DNA from: Escherichia phage BAU.Micro_ELP-22
Length of the DNA: 64,000 nucleotides
Sequence record: OR699282.2
Direction: 5' to 3' (one strand)
Each line of letters begins with the position of its first letter. Within the stretch, counting starts at the first letter, position 1. Both the position numbers and the translations under genes were made by a program. Below, piece by piece: positions 58,732-63,935 of the stretch. The notes beneath the pieces were generated by a model, which saw only the letters and a list, made by a program, of their open reading frames with translations, was not told where the DNA came from and made no database searches.

Positions 58732-58959
58732 ATGACAAATACTCTTAAGTACTACCTGAATACTCTAAATGAACTAGAGTACGGTGAGTTTCTCGCAGAT
58801 AGTTCGTGGCTAATTGAGCTAAAAAATTATAATAGTCCAGGATGCACCCTTATGATGAACAATGCAATTGATACCCTCATAGTAAGCATATTGCACAGCA
58901 ACATCTGCGGGGATAGCAATAAACAATTATCAAAAATCTTAGTACTGCTATCTATATGA
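58732..58959 (+). CDS. small protein, tandem ~60-aa family (divergent first member)
   Basis: 75 codons, C-term ILVLLSI. Confidence 0.5.
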   Translation: MTNTLKYYLNTLNELEYGEFLADSSWLIELKNYNSPGCTLMMNNAIDTLIVSILHSNICGDSNKQLSKILVLLSI

Positions 58960-59159
58960 ATATCGAACAGTACTACATCGATGCACTACCAACAAAAGGT
59001 CTACGTGAAAGCCTACTGCATACACAAACTAATTTCAAACACCTCAAACGTAGCCCTAAACTCCTGAACTCGTACAGGAATAATAACATAAGAAATGCTT
59101 TACAAGGGGTAGAATGTATGCAATACTATTACATCCTTACCCTATTAATCGAGTACTAA
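58956..59159 (+). CDS. small protein, tandem ~60-aa family
   Basis: MNIEQYYIDALP..YYILTLLIEY. Confidence 0.55.
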   Translation: MNIEQYYIDALPTKGLRESLLHTQTNFKHLKRSPKLLNSYRNNNIRNALQGVECMQYYYILTLLIEY

Positions 59160-59160
59160 T

Positions 59161-59370
59161 ATGAATACTGAACATAAAGAATTCTACACCAAATACCTTA
59201 GCAACGAAGAACAATTGTTTCTAAGGAGTGTATCACCTGTAAGTACCAATACTCAATTCGGTAGAGATTGCTTTAATAATTGTATACGTAGTACTCTAGA
59301 AGCAATCGAATGCAATAACAAAAATATTATGTACTCAGGTTTAATAGGACTAATATATTTCTATGAATAA
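59161..59370 (+). CDS. small protein, tandem ~60-aa family (HKEFY subtype)
   Basis: MNTEHKEFYTKYLS..; close paralog of 63145. Confidence 0.55.
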   Translation: MNTEHKEFYTKYLSNEEQLFLRSVSPVSTNTQFGRDCFNNCIRSTLEAIECNNKNIMYSGLIGLIYFYE

Positions 59371-59557
59371 TCATAAAGATTTCTATTGTAGTAAACTACC
59401 CAAACAAGAACAGCTATCATTCTCTTTAGCACCACCTATGAGAAAGGATAATCTGTATTATAATTACGATTTCAGGATGGTGACACGTTATGCAATAGAA
59501 CATCAGTTCCCTGAAACTAAGTACCGCTCTATCCTGAACCTCATCTTTAAGTTCTAA
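59363..59557 (+). CDS. small protein, tandem ~60-aa family
   Basis: MNNHKDFYCSKLP..ILNLIFKF. Confidence 0.55.
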   Translation: MNNHKDFYCSKLPKQEQLSFSLAPPMRKDNLYYNYDFRMVTRYAIEHQFPETKYRSILNLIFKF

Positions 59558-59609
59558 AAGGTACACCAGGGACCGAGTACTTTAATATAGTAAGGCTAAT
59601 TACATTATA

Positions 59610-59795
59610 ATGAATCATATAAGCTACTACTACCAACAACTATCCGACAGAGACAAGTACAGTCACAACTCCCATGTGTGGTACTACAAACGCGGCAGTA
59701 TAAGAGACAAACAACATTACTTCTGTATTTCTATTAAAGAAGCACTGACAACTAAGTACACGTACCGAGCAGTACTTAAACTTATTGAAATGTAA
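59610..59795 (+). CDS. small protein, tandem ~60-aa family
   Basis: MNHISYYYQQL..YRAVLKLIEM. Confidence 0.5.
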   Translation: MNHISYYYQQLSDRDKYSHNSHVWYYKRGSIRDKQHYFCISIKEALTTKYTYRAVLKLIEM

Positions 59796-59805
59796 AGAGA
59801 ATACT

Positions 59806-59988
59806 ATGAACATTGAATTGTACTTAAGTAAATTACAGCCTGGCGATAGATTCATCTACAATAAGTTCGAATTCAACTACAAGAACGGGAGCAACAAATA
59901 TCGTCGAGGATACCTATATACAAGCACAAGAGATGCACAAAACGAAAAGTACACATACAGAGAAGTACTTAAACTAATCTCTATTTGA
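59806..59988 (+). CDS. small protein, tandem ~60-aa family
   Basis: Start reset to MNIELYL; C-term YREVLKLISI. Confidence 0.5.
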   Translation: MNIELYLSKLQPGDRFIYNKFEFNYKNGSNKYRRGYLYTSTRDAQNEKYTYREVLKLISI

Positions 59989-59996
59989 GGTAATAT

Positions 59997-60182
59997 ATGA
60001 ATACATTTGAGTACTATACCAATAAACTATCTATGCCTGAAAGATCTCATCTCTATGTGTGGAGAAATGCGTATAAAAGCGGCAATAAACTTATACAAAG
60101 AAATTCCCTTACAGTGTGTACAAATTTAATTAAAGCAGAGTACCGCACATATATTGAAGTACTCAAACTGATAGCAATATAA
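59997..60182 (+). CDS. small protein, tandem ~60-aa family
   Basis: MNTFEYYTNKL..YIEVLKLIAI. Confidence 0.55.
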   Translation: MNTFEYYTNKLSMPERSHLYVWRNAYKSGNKLIQRNSLTVCTNLIKAEYRTYIEVLKLIAI

Positions 60183-60190
60183 GGTACTCT

Positions 60191-60370
60191 ATGCAAGAAT
60201 TCTATATCTATAACCTCCAGCACAAAGATAGATACAACTATAATAAATTCCAAAGGTACTACACAGTCGGGAACAAAAGAGATAAAAAACGTTATCTACT
60301 CTCGTGTACAGTAGAAGCACAAAACGAAAAGTACACGTACAGAGAAGTACTTAAACTAATCTCAATCTAA
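60191..60370 (+). CDS. small protein, tandem ~60-aa family
   Basis: 59 codons (below track cutoff), hand-translated MQEFYIYNL..YREVLKLISI. Confidence 0.45.
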   Translation: MQEFYIYNLQHKDRYNYNKFQRYYTVGNKRDKKRYLLSCTVEAQNEKYTYREVLKLISI

Positions 60371-60377
60371 GGTAGAC

Positions 60378-60566
60378 ATGAACACTTTTGAGTACTACTT
60401 CAATAAACTAAACCACATAGAACAAAGTATGCACTACACATTTATTCAGAACCATCAATCATCTTCACCTCTAATTAAAAACATATCGATTGAGATTATA
60501 ACTAACAGTGTACTGTCATCTGAACGTTATATGTATATTGATGTACTGAAACTCATCTCTATGTAA
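60378..60566 (+). CDS. small protein, tandem ~60-aa family
   Basis: MNTFEYYFNKL..YIDVLKLISM. Confidence 0.55.
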   Translation: MNTFEYYFNKLNHIEQSMHYTFIQNHQSSSPLIKNISIEIITNSVLSSERYMYIDVLKLISM

Positions 60567-60574
60567 GGAATACT

Positions 60575-62369: not shown

Positions 62370-62370
62370 T

Positions 62371-62559
62371 GTGTATAAAGAATACTACATAAAAGATTTA
62401 CCACCGCACCTTCAAGGTAATCTGTTAGAAGATGAACCTCGCGGTATAGAAATAAACTACGAAAAAGACTACTTTATTACGTGCACTAAATGCGTGATAA
62501 ATTATTACAACTACAATCAAGTACTGTATCATACCCTGTACTTAGCATTCGTATTCTAA
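62371..62559 (+). CDS. small protein, tandem ~60-aa family (start codon uncertain)
   Basis: Family ATG replaced by GTG (..TAATGTGTATAAAGAATACTAC); alternative in-frame ATG at 62326 overlaps upstream gene. Confidence 0.4.
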   Translation: MYKEYYIKDLPPHLQGNLLEDEPRGIEINYEKDYFITCTKCVINYYNYNQVLYHTLYLAFVF

Positions 62560-62568
62560 GAGAACAAT

Positions 62569-62757
62569 ATGCATAAAGAATACTACACAAAATATTTCCC
62601 AATGTACCTCAGAACTAATCTATTAGATAAACCTCGCGGTATCAATGCTCAAAACGATAAAGTGTACTTTACTATGTGCACTAAAGCATGTATACTAGAT
62701 TTTGATAGCTATCATCGAGTACTGTATCATACCCTGTACCTAGCTTTCGTATTCTAA
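62569..62757 (+). CDS. small protein, tandem ~60-aa family
   Basis: MHKEYYTKYFPMYL..YHTLYLAFVF. Confidence 0.55.
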   Translation: MHKEYYTKYFPMYLRTNLLDKPRGINAQNDKVYFTMCTKACILDFDSYHRVLYHTLYLAFVF

Positions 62758-62766
62758 AAGAACAAT

Positions 62767-62952
62767 ATGCATAAAGAATTCTACTTAAGCCATCTCGATC
62801 TAAACTCCCAAATGCTTATACCACTAATCCCAATAGATATCAAGGATAAGAAAAATACCGAACAATTCATTTACCATACACAGTGTGCGATCACCCCAAA
62901 TTACATTCCATATGAATTGTACTACATTCTCGCCCTAATATATAGGTACTAA
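62767..62952 (+). CDS. small protein, tandem ~60-aa family
   Basis: MHKEFYLSHL..YYILALIYRY. Confidence 0.55.
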   Translation: MHKEFYLSHLDLNSQMLIPLIPIDIKDKKNTEQFIYHTQCAITPNYIPYELYYILALIYRY

Positions 62953-62953
62953 T

Positions 62954-63139
62954 ATGCATAGAGAATACTACACACAATTTGTTAAAGGGAACTACAAACA
63001 TGCCGTACCCAGAACCCCTTTAAATTTTCATGACCCAAGTACTATATTCTTGTTCCATGACGCAATACGTACAGTACTCAATACTAAAGATGAAGATGTG
63101 CAGTACGTATTCTTACTATTACTTATATACAGACACTAA
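62954..63139 (+). CDS. small protein, tandem ~60-aa family
   Basis: MHREYYTQFV..FLLLLIYRH. Confidence 0.55.
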   Translation: MHREYYTQFVKGNYKHAVPRTPLNFHDPSTIFLFHDAIRTVLNTKDEDVQYVFLLLLIYRH

Positions 63140-63144
63140 CTAAT

Positions 63145-63354
63145 ATGAATAAAGAACATAAAGAATTCTACTCCAAATACATAAGCCCCTCAGAACAAAT
63201 GTTTCTAAGGACTACAGCACCTTTAAGTACTAATACATTTTTCGGCAGAGTATGCTACAATAATTGTATTCAAATGACTTTAAACGCAAACGAAGATGGT
63301 AACAGTACTAACCTGTACTCAGGTATCATAGGTATACTATTCCTGTATGAATAA
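63145..63354 (+). CDS. small protein, tandem ~60-aa family (HKEFY subtype)
   Basis: MNKEHKEFYSKYIS..; close paralog of 59161. Confidence 0.55.
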   Translation: MNKEHKEFYSKYISPSEQMFLRTTAPLSTNTFFGRVCYNNCIQMTLNANEDGNSTNLYSGIIGILFLYE

Positions 63355-63535
63355 TTACAAAGACTTCTATTTGAATACACTACCTACTGTACTTTCTCTA
63401 AGTGCTCAATGTAAAATCCCCCTGGATAATGCTTACGCCAGATATAGCTATTCCATAACTGTTAATCGATGTATAGAGAATCATTGCAGTACTAACCAGT
63501 ACTATAACATAATCCTACTTATATTCAGGTACTAA
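63347..63535 (+). CDS. small protein, tandem ~60-aa family
   Basis: MNNYKDFYLNTLP..YNIILLIFRY. Confidence 0.55.
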   Translation: MNNYKDFYLNTLPTVLSLSAQCKIPLDNAYARYSYSITVNRCIENHCSTNQYYNIILLIFRY

Positions 63536-63536
63536 T

Positions 63537-63719
63537 ATGAATAAAGAACATAAAGAATTCTATATACGAAAACTAACATTCGTCCCCGTAAGAATATATA
63601 AAGAATGCGACCCAAGATTATACCTATGGCACTTCAATGAGTGCATAAAAGATTCTATATACCCTAAGAACTATAAAGAACAATTGTGCTCAGTACTAAC
63701 ACTAGTACTATCATATTAA
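63537..63719 (+). CDS. small protein, tandem ~60-aa family
   Basis: MNKEHKEFYIRKL.. Confidence 0.5.
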   Translation: MNKEHKEFYIRKLTFVPVRIYKECDPRLYLWHFNECIKDSIYPKNYKEQLCSVLTLVLSY

Positions 63720-63734
63720 TTAATAGAGAATACT

Positions 63735-63935
63735 ATGCATAAAGAGTATAAAAACTTCTATATAAGTAAACTAAAAGAAAATGAACAAGTATGGATTAGA
63801 TCTATAATTCCACTGGCATTTAATAGATATGCATTTAACAGATGTACCGAGATTGCTATAGACCCTTATAATATTAAAGAGAATGTACAGTATAATCAGT
63901 ACTACTATATCTTAATGCTTATATATAGAAAGTAA
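63735..63935 (+). CDS. small protein, tandem ~60-aa family
   Basis: MHKEYKNFYISKL..YYYILMLIYRK. Confidence 0.55.
   Translation: MHKEYKNFYISKLKENEQVWIRSIIPLAFNRYAFNRCTEIAIDPYNIKENVQYNQYYYILMLIYRK

What the first reader, a model, noticed from the sequence alone, without database searches (positions are those of the whole stretch)
58732..63935. About 24 tandem genes of ~60 codons with conserved termini and variable cores
Head-to-tail genes with overlapping stop/start junctions (..GGTACTAATATGAAT..) encode 59-75 aa proteins sharing an N-terminal M-N-x-H-K-E-Y/F-Y...L-P and a C-terminal Y-x-x-L-x-L-I-[FY]-[KR]-[YF], with divergent middles; subtypes recur (59161~63145; 61789~61982). One larger unrelated gene (60765-61424) sits inside the array and one copy (62371) has lost the canonical ATG. 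An array this size of micro-proteins looks like a diversified family (candidate anti-defence decoys, immunity or exclusion peptides), and I cannot match it to a known family from memory.
Basis: partly seen in the sequence, partly recalled or inferred. Interest (0 to 1): 0.8.

Follow-up and report, generated by a model that had tools for sequence, protein, structure and literature searches.

The report
Tandem mini-protein family in jumbo coliphage
A giant E. coli virus carries one operon of 23 head-to-tail genes for related 60-amino-acid helical proteins that share a core but differ on the surface; the family is real, under selection and found only in this virus genus, and its function (probably binding host proteins early in infection) is untested.

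Summary
Window 58732-63935 holds 23 same-strand genes (59-75 aa) of one family plus one unrelated 219-aa gene, covering 96.8 % of the region. The window comes from an Asteriusvirus-type jumbo coliphage (121Q/PBECO4 group). All copies are intact in 11 related genomes (15-23 copies each). Orthologue dN/dS is about 0.29. Gene content changes by whole-gene gain or loss and by mosaic recombination.

An exhaustive search of 1.84 billion proteins finds only 38 clusters, and tblastn finds the family in only 35 of 50,697 phage records, all Asteriusvirus-like. It is catalogued only as phrog_11711 (no function). AlphaFold gives a confident small helical domain (pLDDT 90) with no structural relative. There are no TM segments.

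An invariant sigma-70 promoter precedes the operon. In E9.1 the array ends 273 bp before the 20-kb terminal repeat. It shares an unusual C-ending codon usage with the terminal-repeat genes. None of the array proteins appears in the published phAPEC6 virion proteome.

Best reading (inferred): an early-expressed set of specific protein binders aimed at host factors. Membrane exclusion peptides, acidic DNA-mimic decoys and RiPP precursors are disfavoured. It is a new member of a known kind, the tandem multigene families of large viruses. Function remains unproven.

The parts
58678..58706 (+). Sigma-70-type promoter TTGACA-N17-TACTAT, with the palindrome CAGTACTG in its spacer
   Evidence: 10 of 12 consensus match. 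Both hexamers, the CAGTACTG and the TAAGGAG ribosome-binding site are invariant in 9 phages. It belongs to a recurring promoter class TTGAC[AT]-N8-CAGTACTG-TATAAT found at 5 other sites in the window.
58732..59557 (+). Genes 1-4 (58732-58959, 58956-59159, 59161-59370, 59363-59557): the divergent 5' anchor block of the family
   Evidence: Family HMM E 2e-8 to 2e-23. Genes 1-3 are present at the same position in all 9 isolates; in BF17 gene 4 is replaced by a divergent gene-4-like copy. Genes 2-5 are recognisable at 60-90 % identity in the divergent contigs L009 and L011, whose first gene differs from window gene 1. Overlaps of 4 and 8 nt suggest translational coupling.
59558..59609 (.). The only sizeable intergenic gap (52 nt). 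A promoter-like site lies at 59582-59611. This is an insertion point in some relatives.
   Evidence: slurp01, phAPEC6 and BF17 carry an extra ORF outside the family here.
59610..60754 (+). Genes 5-10 (59610-59795, 59806-59988, 59997-60182, 60191-60370, 60378-60566, 60575-60754): the mostly basic subfamily A, with C-terminus Y-x-Y-R-E-V-L-K-L-I-S-I
   Evidence: They form a separate BLAST-linked group of 6. pI is 9.2-9.6 for five of the six. Genes 6-9 are absent or replaced by a hybrid gene in 121Q, PBECO4, phAPEC6 and SD-15_S21.
60765..61424 (+). Embedded 219-aa gene, unrelated to the family and at a fixed position in every array
   Evidence: phrog_29152, unknown function, E 6e-112. Homologues occur only in Asteriusvirus-like contigs. 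No Pfam or PDB match. The AlphaFold model is unusable, pLDDT 36. Not related to the family. It contains 4 copies of CAGTACTG.
61417..63935 (+). Genes 12-24 (61417-61599, 61601-61780, 61789-61980, 61982-62170, 62181-62369, 62371-62559 with GTG start, 62569-62757, 62767-62952, 62954-63139, 63145-63354, 63347-63535, 63537-63719, 63735-63935): subfamily B, with C-terminus L-Y-x-x-L-L-L-I-[FY]-[RK]-[YF]
   Evidence: Family HMM E 1e-13 to 1e-25. This is the most plastic part of the array: genes 61982 and 62371 are absent from 8 other isolates, mosaic segments are present, and the order differs in L009 and L011. The AlphaFold model is of gene 61982.

Best explanation
This is one operon of a jumbo coliphage, read from a conserved host-type (sigma-70) promoter. 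It encodes 23 tightly packed, probably translationally coupled mini-proteins of a single genus-specific family, plus one unrelated 219-aa protein.

Each mini-protein is predicted to fold into the same small soluble helical domain. The conserved aromatic and aliphatic residues form the core. They come from the N-terminal E-[YF]-Y helix, from F..C[TI]...[LI] in helix 3, and from the C-terminal [YL]..[IV]L.LI..Y helix. The positions in between differ from paralogue to paralogue, yet within each orthologue they are kept by purifying selection. The array is therefore a set of at least 23 different surfaces on one scaffold.

The repertoire is remodelled by unequal crossing-over and gene conversion between copies. 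This produces whole-gene gains and losses and chimeric genes.

Most likely (inferred, not shown), the proteins are made early in infection and act as stoichiometric binders or inhibitors, each paralogue aimed at a different host target. Candidate targets are host-takeover targets or strain-variable defence proteins. This would resemble the tandem multigene families of large eukaryotic viruses.

Shown here: the array itself, family membership, the conserved promoter motif, intact copies, purifying selection, copy-number variation, mosaicism, the position next to the terminal repeat, and a shared codon-usage class. Taken from the literature: the absence of these proteins from the published phAPEC6 virion proteome list. 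Inferred: early timing, binding activity, and the nature of the targets.
For: Coding and selected: 96.8 % ORF coverage against about 4 % in shuffles. All 15-23 copies are full-length and intact in 9 isolates and 2 divergent metagenomic contigs. Orthologue dN/dS is 0.29 overall and is below 1 in every region, including the variable middle at 0.43.

Scaffold plus variable surface: the conserved columns are hydrophobic or aromatic. The AlphaFold2 model has pLDDT 90.1 and pTM 0.76, with helices at 3-9, 14-17, 29-44 and 48-61. Paralogues are only 12-62 % identical.

Soluble: the maximum 15-residue hydropathy is below 1.6 and there is no signal peptide.

Early class (indirect): a near-consensus sigma-70 promoter that is invariant in 9 phages. 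C-ending codons make up 0.48 of NNC/NNT pairs in the family, 0.44 in gene 11 and 0.39 in the terminal-repeat genes, against 0.23 and 0.17 in other genes. In E9.1 the array ends 273 bp before the 20,107-bp terminal repeat. In the related phage PA5oct, which depends on host RNA polymerase, the terminal-repeat genes are the early genes. The phAPEC6 virion proteome lists the neighbouring RCC1-like gp549 and gp551 but none of gp540c-548c.

Fast turnover, typical of host-interaction genes: 28 orthogroups in 9 isolates and at least 38 clusters at 50 % identity overall. Genes are mosaic. Synonymous divergence is lower at the termini than in the middle, which indicates gene conversion.
Against: There is no direct evidence of expression timing, of any binding partner, or of any phenotype. 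The promoter call is a consensus match only.

No dN/dS above 1 was found between orthologues or between close paralogues, so there is no arms-race signature at the resolution used.

Small proteins are easily missed by virion mass spectrometry, and several copies were not annotated in phAPEC6. The codon-usage difference could reflect local mutational bias rather than expression class.
Confidence: 0.42

Rival explanations
1. Small DNA-binding or regulatory proteins. On this reading the array is a lineage-specific expansion of specific transcription factors or nucleoid-associated proteins, as proposed for the ~35-copy zinc-ribbon expansion of Bacillus phage G. They might recognise phage motifs such as the over-represented CAGTACTG.
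For: Subfamily A is basic, with pI 9.2-9.6. The proteins are small and helical. The phage genome is saturated with an 8-bp palindrome, 40 copies against about 1 expected, that sits in promoter spacers, including the array's own promoter. A precedent is discussed for phage G.
Confidence: 0.15
2. Assembly chaperones or accessory partners for the neighbouring, divergently transcribed array of RCC1-like beta-propeller virion proteins. On this reading the paralogues co-diversified with those proteins.
For: The array lies directly next to an 11-13-copy RCC1-like array on the other strand and shares a 103-bp control region with it. This synteny is conserved even in divergent contigs. The RCC1-like proteins are virion components in phAPEC6.
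Against: The promoter type and codon usage differ sharply from the RCC1 genes: the C-ending fraction is 0.48 against 0.17. Copy numbers do not match (phAPEC6 has 17 small genes and 11 RCC1-like genes). The small proteins are not in the virion list.
Confidence: 0.1
3. Largely dispensable filler. On this reading tandem duplications expanded the genome to fit a head-full of an enlarged capsid (the hypothesis of Hua et al. 2017), with little specific function per copy.
For: Hua et al. explicitly invoke tandem arrays in 121Q as a mode of genome expansion. Copy number varies from 15 to 23 without obvious consequence, since all are viable isolates. Some genes show dN/dS near 1, for example genes 59363 and 60378, though on few substitutions.
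Against: The paralogues are ancient (dS from 0.4 to saturated), yet none of more than 200 copies examined is a pseudogene. Overall dN/dS is 0.29, and paralogue-specific sequences are conserved. The promoter, the ribosome-binding site and the tight coupling are conserved.
Confidence: 0.12
4. Precursor peptides of a RiPP-like system. The conserved N- and C-terminal regions would act as recognition sequences and the middle as a variable core. The embedded 219-aa protein would be the modifying enzyme.
For: The architecture resembles multi-precursor RiPP loci: many short genes with conserved ends and variable middles, plus one invariant larger gene inside the array. A Cys-Thr/Ile pair and many Tyr residues are conserved.
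Against: The fold prediction is confident and globular, and the conserved residues act as its core. The variable middle is under purifying selection within orthologues. Gene 11 has no detectable enzyme domain. No protease or exporter is present.
Confidence: 0.03
5. Membrane-acting superinfection-exclusion or immunity peptides.
For: They are small phage accessory proteins with a hydrophobic C-terminus (LYYILLLIF).
Against: The hydrophobic run is only about 9 residues long. The maximum 15-residue Kyte-Doolittle mean is below 1.6, there is no signal peptide, and the segment is modelled at pLDDT of about 95 as a packed core helix.
Confidence: 0.05

Closest known systems
PHROG family phrog_11711 ('hypothetical proteins' of Asteriusvirus phages such as 121Q gp249-gp265)
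   Same: It is the same protein family. 15 of the 23 copies match, best E 5e-28. The genes are annotated as hypothetical proteins in 121Q, E9.1 and other phages.
   Different: The PHROG carries no function and misses 8 divergent copies that my family HMM recovers. Many GenBank records annotate only a fraction of the copies, for example 5 of 17 in the PBECO4 RefSeq record.
Tandem multigene families of large eukaryotic DNA viruses (African swine fever virus MGF100/110/360/505; poxvirus 'genomic accordions'). Cited from general knowledge.
   Same: Both are tandem arrays of diverged paralogues near a genome terminus or terminal repeat, with copy number and content varying between isolates through recombination.
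   Different: The virus realm and the host are different, and the proteins are unrelated and much smaller. Immune-evasion and host-range roles are demonstrated for those families and are not tested here. The paralogues here are old, not recent amplifications.
Lineage-specific expansion of about 35 zinc-ribbon proteins in Bacillus phage G (Iyer et al. 2021, PMC7824862), and the '>30 very similar genes' tandem arrays noted in phages G and 121Q (Hua et al. 2017, PMC5646251)
   Same: Both are large tandem expansions of small proteins in a jumbo phage, interpreted as products of tandem duplication.
   Different: The fold differs: all-helical with a single conserved Cys, not a zinc ribbon. The 121Q remark is one sentence with no family description. 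The copies here are not 'very similar' (12-62 % identity).
Early host-takeover and anti-defence gene blocks of lytic phages (T5 pre-early genes in the terminal repeat, the T7 class I gene 0.3/ocr, the SPO1 host-takeover module, anti-CRISPR loci). Cited from general knowledge.
   Same: Both are runs of small non-structural genes behind strong host-type promoters, at or next to the terminal repeat, with high turnover between relatives.
   Different: Those blocks consist of unrelated genes, not some 23 paralogues of one fold. There is no sequence or structural similarity to any of them. No Aca-like HTH regulator was seen.

Membership tests
phrog_11711 (uncharacterised phage protein family) | Significant match to the family HMM | tested here: met
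   15 of 23 copies match at E <= 0.01, best 5e-28. The other 8 join through a family HMM built here, E 2e-8 to 1e-13.
Viral tandem multigene family / lineage-specific expansion | Three or more paralogues in a head-to-tail array on one strand | tested here: met
   23 paralogues, + strand only.
Viral tandem multigene family / lineage-specific expansion | Copy number and content vary between closely related isolates through recombination | tested here: met
   15-23 copies and 28 orthogroups in 9 isolates. Chimeric genes are present, and dS is lower at the termini than in the middle.
Viral tandem multigene family / lineage-specific expansion | Role in host range or immune evasion | not testable with these tools
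   This needs genetics and infection assays.
Superinfection-exclusion / immunity membrane peptides | Transmembrane segment or signal/lipoprotein peptide | tested here: not met
   The maximum 15-residue hydropathy is below 1.6, the N-terminus MNNHKEYY is polar, and the predicted domain is soluble and helical.
DNA-mimic decoys (Ocr/ArdA-like) | Strongly acidic surface, pI about 4 | tested here: not met
   pI ranges from 4.7 to 9.6, and 12 of 23 copies have pI above 8. No fold match.
RiPP precursor array | A recognisable modifying enzyme, protease or exporter in the locus | tested here: not met
   The only other gene (219 aa) has no Pfam, PDB or PHROG function.
RiPP precursor array | An unstructured, hypervariable core peptide | tested here: not met
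   The fold spans the whole chain with confidence, pLDDT 90. The middle has dN/dS of 0.43 within orthologues.
Zinc-ribbon expansion (phage G type) | Paired CxxC zinc-binding motifs | tested here: not met
   Only one Cys column is conserved, in 14 of 23 copies. The model is all-helical.
Known defence or anti-defence protein families | Match to a curated model (PADLOC, Pfam) or to a solved structure | tested here: not met

The most novel reading that the evidence does not exclude
The array is a phage 'germline repertoire' of mini-binders. One helical scaffold would carry at least 38 known surface variants across the genus. These would be shuffled as cassettes by recombination between the conserved gene ends, and each would neutralise a different strain-variable E. 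coli/Salmonella defence or host factor during the first minutes of infection. That would make it a bacteriophage counterpart of the host-range multigene families of ASFV and poxviruses, and the largest such family described in a phage.
Probability: 0.25. Interest if true: 0.8.

Novelty: new member of a known kind. Interest (0 to 1): 0.5.

Why it matters
If the paralogues are specific binders of host proteins, this one 5-kb operon would supply about 23 (and genus-wide at least 38) ready-made small inhibitors of E. coli/Salmonella factors. It would be a compact resource for discovering anti-defence or host-takeover mechanisms, and it could explain host-range differences among therapeutic jumbo coliphages. 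It is also a clean natural example of how a phage builds and reshuffles a multigene family: conserved gene ends act both as the structural core of the protein and as recombination handles. Practically, it shows that most deposited Asteriusvirus annotations under-call these genes.

Tried and rejected
- **Pfam on all 23 copies:** only sub-threshold noise, such as EB1 at E 0.0011 for one copy. Rejected.
- **PADLOC:** nothing.
- **PDB profile search by sequence:** best E 0.34, to Nsp1. Rejected.
- **Is the 219-aa gene a fused or diverged family member?** No.
- **Identifying the 219-aa gene:** its homologues occur only in the same phages, there is no PDB match, and the AlphaFold model has pLDDT 36 and is unusable. 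Dead end.
- **Rfam on the ~2-kb unannotated stretch downstream of the array in 121Q:** no match.
- **Positive selection:** no region or paralogue pair has dN/dS above 1 by Nei-Gojobori counts. This is a crude method, and no site models were run.
- **Other head-to-tail gene runs in the window (for example 42323-45103):** not detectably paralogous by BLASTP at 1e-4.
- **Complete E. coli genomes and plasmids:** no copy of the array. It is not a prophage or plasmid element.
- **Literature:** no description of this family. There is only one sentence on tandem arrays in 121Q and one on the RCC1 array in phAPEC6.

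
Full report
**Identity of the window.** The region 58700-64000 matches 33 phage records by megablast. All are Escherichia or Salmonella jumbo phages of 310-386 kb in the 121Q/PBECO4 group (genus Asteriusvirus). The best match is vB_EcoM_E9.1 at 96 % identity over 100 % of the query. The upstream 12 kb matches the same phages and is annotated as a series of 'regulator of chromosome condensation' (RCC1-like) genes.

**Checking the observation.** ORF listing and translation confirm 24 consecutive + strand genes between 58732 and 63935. 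Twenty-three encode 59-75 aa and one encodes 219 aa (60765-61424).
- They cover 96.8 % of the region. In 500 shuffles the mean was 0.97 ORFs of >=59 aa (maximum 5) and about 4 % coverage. The opposite strand has only 2 such ORFs.
- An HMM built from the copies plus database homologues matches all 23 small ORFs over its full length (E 2e-8 to 1e-25). It matches only on the + strand and nowhere else in the 64 kb.
- The conserved positions are M1, E5-[YF]6-Y7 (Y7 invariant), L11, F36, C39-[TI]40, [LI]44, [YL]53, [IV]56-L57, L59-I60 and Y63. Everything between is highly variable. Pairwise identity between paralogues is 12-62 %.
- BLAST separates two groups. One is a mostly basic six-member subfamily (genes 5-10, C-terminus YTYREVLKLISI). 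The other has twelve members (C-terminus LYxxLLLI[FY][RK][YF]). The remaining five copies are linked only through the profile.
- Junctions are very tight: 4 overlaps of 4 or 8 nt, 6 gaps of 1 nt (TAA-T-ATG), 12 gaps of 5-15 nt and one of 52 nt. Where a Shine-Dalgarno-like AGG/AAGG is present, it is often formed by the last sense codons and stop of the preceding gene (AGG-TAC-TAA-T-ATG). This suggests translational coupling.
- Copy 62371 starts with GTG immediately after the preceding stop, so it keeps a legal start codon. Its relatives in divergent contigs start with ATG.
- The 219-aa gene is unrelated to the family (HMM -4.4 bits; hhalign probability 0.1 %).

**Are they genes?** I applied the family HMM to stop-to-stop ORFs of eight GenBank relatives and two divergent metagenomic contigs.
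- Copy numbers are window 23, E9.1 21, BF17 21, SP27 19, slurp01 19, PBECO4 17, phAPEC6 17, 121Q 16 and SD-15_S21 15. L011 has about 21 and L009 about 18.
- Every copy is a full-length intact ORF on the same strand.
- Nei-Gojobori counts between window genes and their orthologues (>=70 % aa identity) give 364 synonymous and 436 non-synonymous differences. This corresponds to dN 0.022, dS 0.076 and dN/dS 0.29.
- Within orthogroups, every region has dN/dS below 1: C-terminus 0.19, conserved core columns 0.30, N-terminus 0.42, variable middle 0.43, loop 0.55.
These are protein-coding genes, and each paralogue's distinctive middle is itself maintained by selection.

**How the array evolves.**
- Orthogroup maps are colinear across the nine isolates but differ by whole-gene presence or absence. 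There are 28 orthogroups at 70 % identity. Genes 61982 and 62371 occur only in the window among these nine.
- Sliding-window comparison shows mosaic genes. The first 48 nt of gene 61982 are essentially identical to gene 61789; its middle resembles gene 61417, and its 3' end resembles a BF17 gene. Gene 62371 combines segments like a PBECO4 gene, like gene 61789 and like gene 62569. The first 78 nt of gene 62181 match only BF17.
- The 121Q gene that replaces window genes 6-9 is a hybrid of the gene 6 and gene 8 types.
- Between close paralogues, synonymous divergence is lower at the termini than in the middle. For 61789 vs 61982 it is 0.36 against 1.3; for 62371 vs 62569 it is 0.17 against 0.52. 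This pattern is expected from gene conversion or crossover in the conserved ends.
- No paralogue pair shows dN/dS above 1; the range is 0.41-0.78. The duplications are old (dS from 0.4 to saturation).
- In the divergent contigs, the anchor genes at the two ends and the position of the ~222-aa gene are kept. The order and content of the distal half differ.

**Distribution.**
- A word-seeded search of 5.8 billion proteins returned 52 hits. All are 49-98 aa, and all named ones come from Asteriusvirus phages.
- An exhaustive HMMER profile search of 1.84 billion cluster representatives found only 38 clusters with E <= 1e-3. All are standalone proteins of 41-69 aa matched end to end.
- tblastn against 50,697 phage records found the family in 35 records, all Escherichia/Salmonella phages of 310-386 kb.
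- There is no match in 5,426 complete E. coli genomes or in 72,556 plasmids.
- The family is therefore a genus-level innovation of these lytic jumbo phages.

**What is known about it.**
- 15 of 23 copies hit phrog_11711, which has no annotation. Pfam gives only sub-threshold noise, PADLOC gives nothing, and the PDB profile search gives nothing.
- GenBank records call the genes 'hypothetical protein', and several records annotate only a minority of them.
- Hua et al. [quoted passage not shown]
- The phAPEC6 paper discusses only the RCC1-like array.
- Iyer et al. 2021 describe a comparable ~35-copy zinc-ribbon expansion in phage G.
- I found no characterisation of this family.

**Structure.** AlphaFold2 on gene 61982 with a 69-sequence family alignment gives pLDDT 90.1 and pTM 0.76. 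The helices are at residues 3-9, 14-17, 29-44 and 48-61.
- The conserved residues are those expected to form the core of such a small domain. This is an inference from sequence pattern, because the coordinates were not inspected.
- The proteins have no TM-grade hydrophobic stretch. pI spans 4.7-9.6. Tyr is two-fold enriched (11.3 % against 5.6 %) and Gly four-fold depleted relative to other ORFs in the window.

**Context and expression class.**
- The 103-bp space between the RCC1-like array (- strand) and gene 1 holds the promoter TTGACA-N17-TACTAT followed by TAAGGAG-N7-ATG. Both hexamers, the spacer palindrome and the ribosome-binding site are invariant in nine phages.
- The spacer contains CAGTACTG. 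This 8-bp palindrome occurs 40 times in the window against about 1 expected.
- At five other sites it sits in near-perfect promoters of the form TTGAC[AT]-N8-CAGTACTG-TATAAT, some directly upstream of tRNA genes.
- The family, the embedded 219-aa gene and the genes of the adjacent terminal repeat share an unusual synonymous codon usage. The C-ending fraction among NNC/NNT pairs is 0.48, 0.44 and 0.39 respectively, against 0.23 in other + strand genes and 0.17 in the RCC1-like genes. This also explains why the coding strand here has a negative GC skew.
- In E9.1, the first 5,792 bases of the record are identical to the sequence that starts 273 bp after the last array gene. The 20,107-bp direct terminal repeat therefore begins just downstream of the array. 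PhageTerm gave a 20,668-bp terminal repeat for Sharanji.
- In PA5oct, a related jumbo phage that depends on host RNA polymerase, RNA-seq classed the uncharacterised terminal-repeat genes as early.
- In the phAPEC6 virion proteome, the RCC1-like gp549 and gp551 are present but none of gp540c-548c.
- Together these points suggest, but do not prove, that the array belongs to the early, non-structural gene class.

**Interpretation.** The well-supported part is descriptive. This is a single operon of 23 diverged paralogues of a genus-specific, soluble, helical mini-protein. It is under purifying selection and remodelled by recombination between its conserved gene ends. It sits behind a conserved host-type promoter at the inner edge of the terminal repeat.

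The functional part is inferred. A conserved core with paralogue-specific, selectively maintained surfaces is what one expects of a set of specific binders. The early-type promoter, the non-virion status and the high turnover between isolates point to host-directed roles (takeover or counter-defence). I put this at about 0.4.

Rivals are a DNA-binding or regulatory role (0.15), near-neutral genome filler (0.12), partners of the RCC1-like virion proteins (0.10), membrane exclusion peptides (0.05) and RiPP-like precursors (0.03). 'Exclusion or immunity peptides' and acidic 'decoys' are disfavoured by the absence of TM segments and by the charge distribution.

**Novelty and score.** Tandem lineage-specific expansions in jumbo phages, and terminal multigene families in large viruses, are known kinds. 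The genes are already deposited and clustered as phrog_11711. What is new here is the delineation of the family: its size, its restriction to one genus, its predicted fold without relatives, its mode of evolution, and its promoter, codon-usage and terminal-repeat context. I rate it a new member of a known kind, with interest 0.5. It is a good, compact experimental target, but nothing in the present evidence shows an unprecedented mechanism.

Noticed in passing
whole window; e.g. 3639, 4048, 4427, 22275, 36590, 58690, 61130-61377: The 8-bp palindrome CAGTACTG occurs 40 times against about 0.94 expected. Six copies sit in the spacer of near-consensus sigma-70 promoters of the form TTGAC[AT]-N8-CAGTACTG-TATAAT. 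Four lie inside the 219-aa gene. Inverted pairs occur in the non-coding stretch after the array in 121Q (L002 10654-10687 and 11652-11676). It could be an operator, a regulator site or a DNA-modification motif.
   Followed up: partly
window 45788-58628 (- strand): This is a second tandem paralogue array: 11-13 RCC1-like beta-propeller genes of 370-460 aa, some of them fragments or overlapping. Two homologues are virion proteins in phAPEC6. The array is transcribed divergently from the small-gene array, and this synteny is conserved in divergent contigs.
   Followed up: partly
L001 (E9.1) 10825-12764; L002 (121Q) 9870-11835; just beyond the window end at 64000: A stretch of about 2 kb with no credible genes follows the array. 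It contains the left boundary of the 20-kb direct terminal repeat, 273 bp after the array in E9.1. It also holds several perfect or near-perfect sigma-70 promoters on both strands, including a 12/12 match. Rfam finds nothing. It could be a terminus or packaging region, an origin, or a small-RNA region.
   Followed up: partly
window 58732-63935 compared with 1-45800: The array, the 219-aa gene and the terminal-repeat genes use C-ending codons about twice as often as other genes of the same phage: 0.39-0.48 against 0.17-0.23. As a result the coding strand has a negative GC skew, the opposite of the + strand genes at 1-46 kb. This may mark an early, host-adapted expression class or a local mutational bias.
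   Followed up: partly
window 1985-7408: A cluster of 7 tRNA genes (Gly x2, Ser x2, Met, Asn, Thr) is interleaved with small ORFs. Several are preceded by CAGTACTG-type promoters.
   Followed up: no
window 1523-2482; 7425-8428; 34895-35584; 30845-32752: There are further small paralogue sets: three ORFs of 60-66 aa at 1523-1702, 1763-1957 and 2282-2482, and three two-member pairs. Gene duplication appears to be pervasive in this genome.
   Followed up: no
L006 (PBECO4 RefSeq), L004 (BF17), L007 (phAPEC6): Deposited annotations miss many array genes. PBECO4 RefSeq annotates about 5 of 17 copies, BF17 about 13 of 21 and phAPEC6 about 8 of 17 (searches compared).
   Followed up: yes
L005 (slurp01) 3869-4078; L007 (phAPEC6) 3869-4078; L004 (BF17) 3668-3880; corresponds to the window gap 59558-59609: Some relatives carry an extra ORF of about 69 aa that is not matched by the family HMM. 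It sits exactly where the window has its only 52-nt gap, between genes 4 and 5. This looks like a cassette insertion or deletion point.
   Followed up: no
proteins P0084, P0092, P0099, P0101; P0030: Several homologues are labelled 'Escherichia coli' on contigs of 34-359 kb, so whole Asteriusvirus genomes sit inside draft E. coli assemblies. None is found in complete RefSeq E. coli genomes or in plasmid records. This suggests contamination or a carrier state, not integration.
   Followed up: partly
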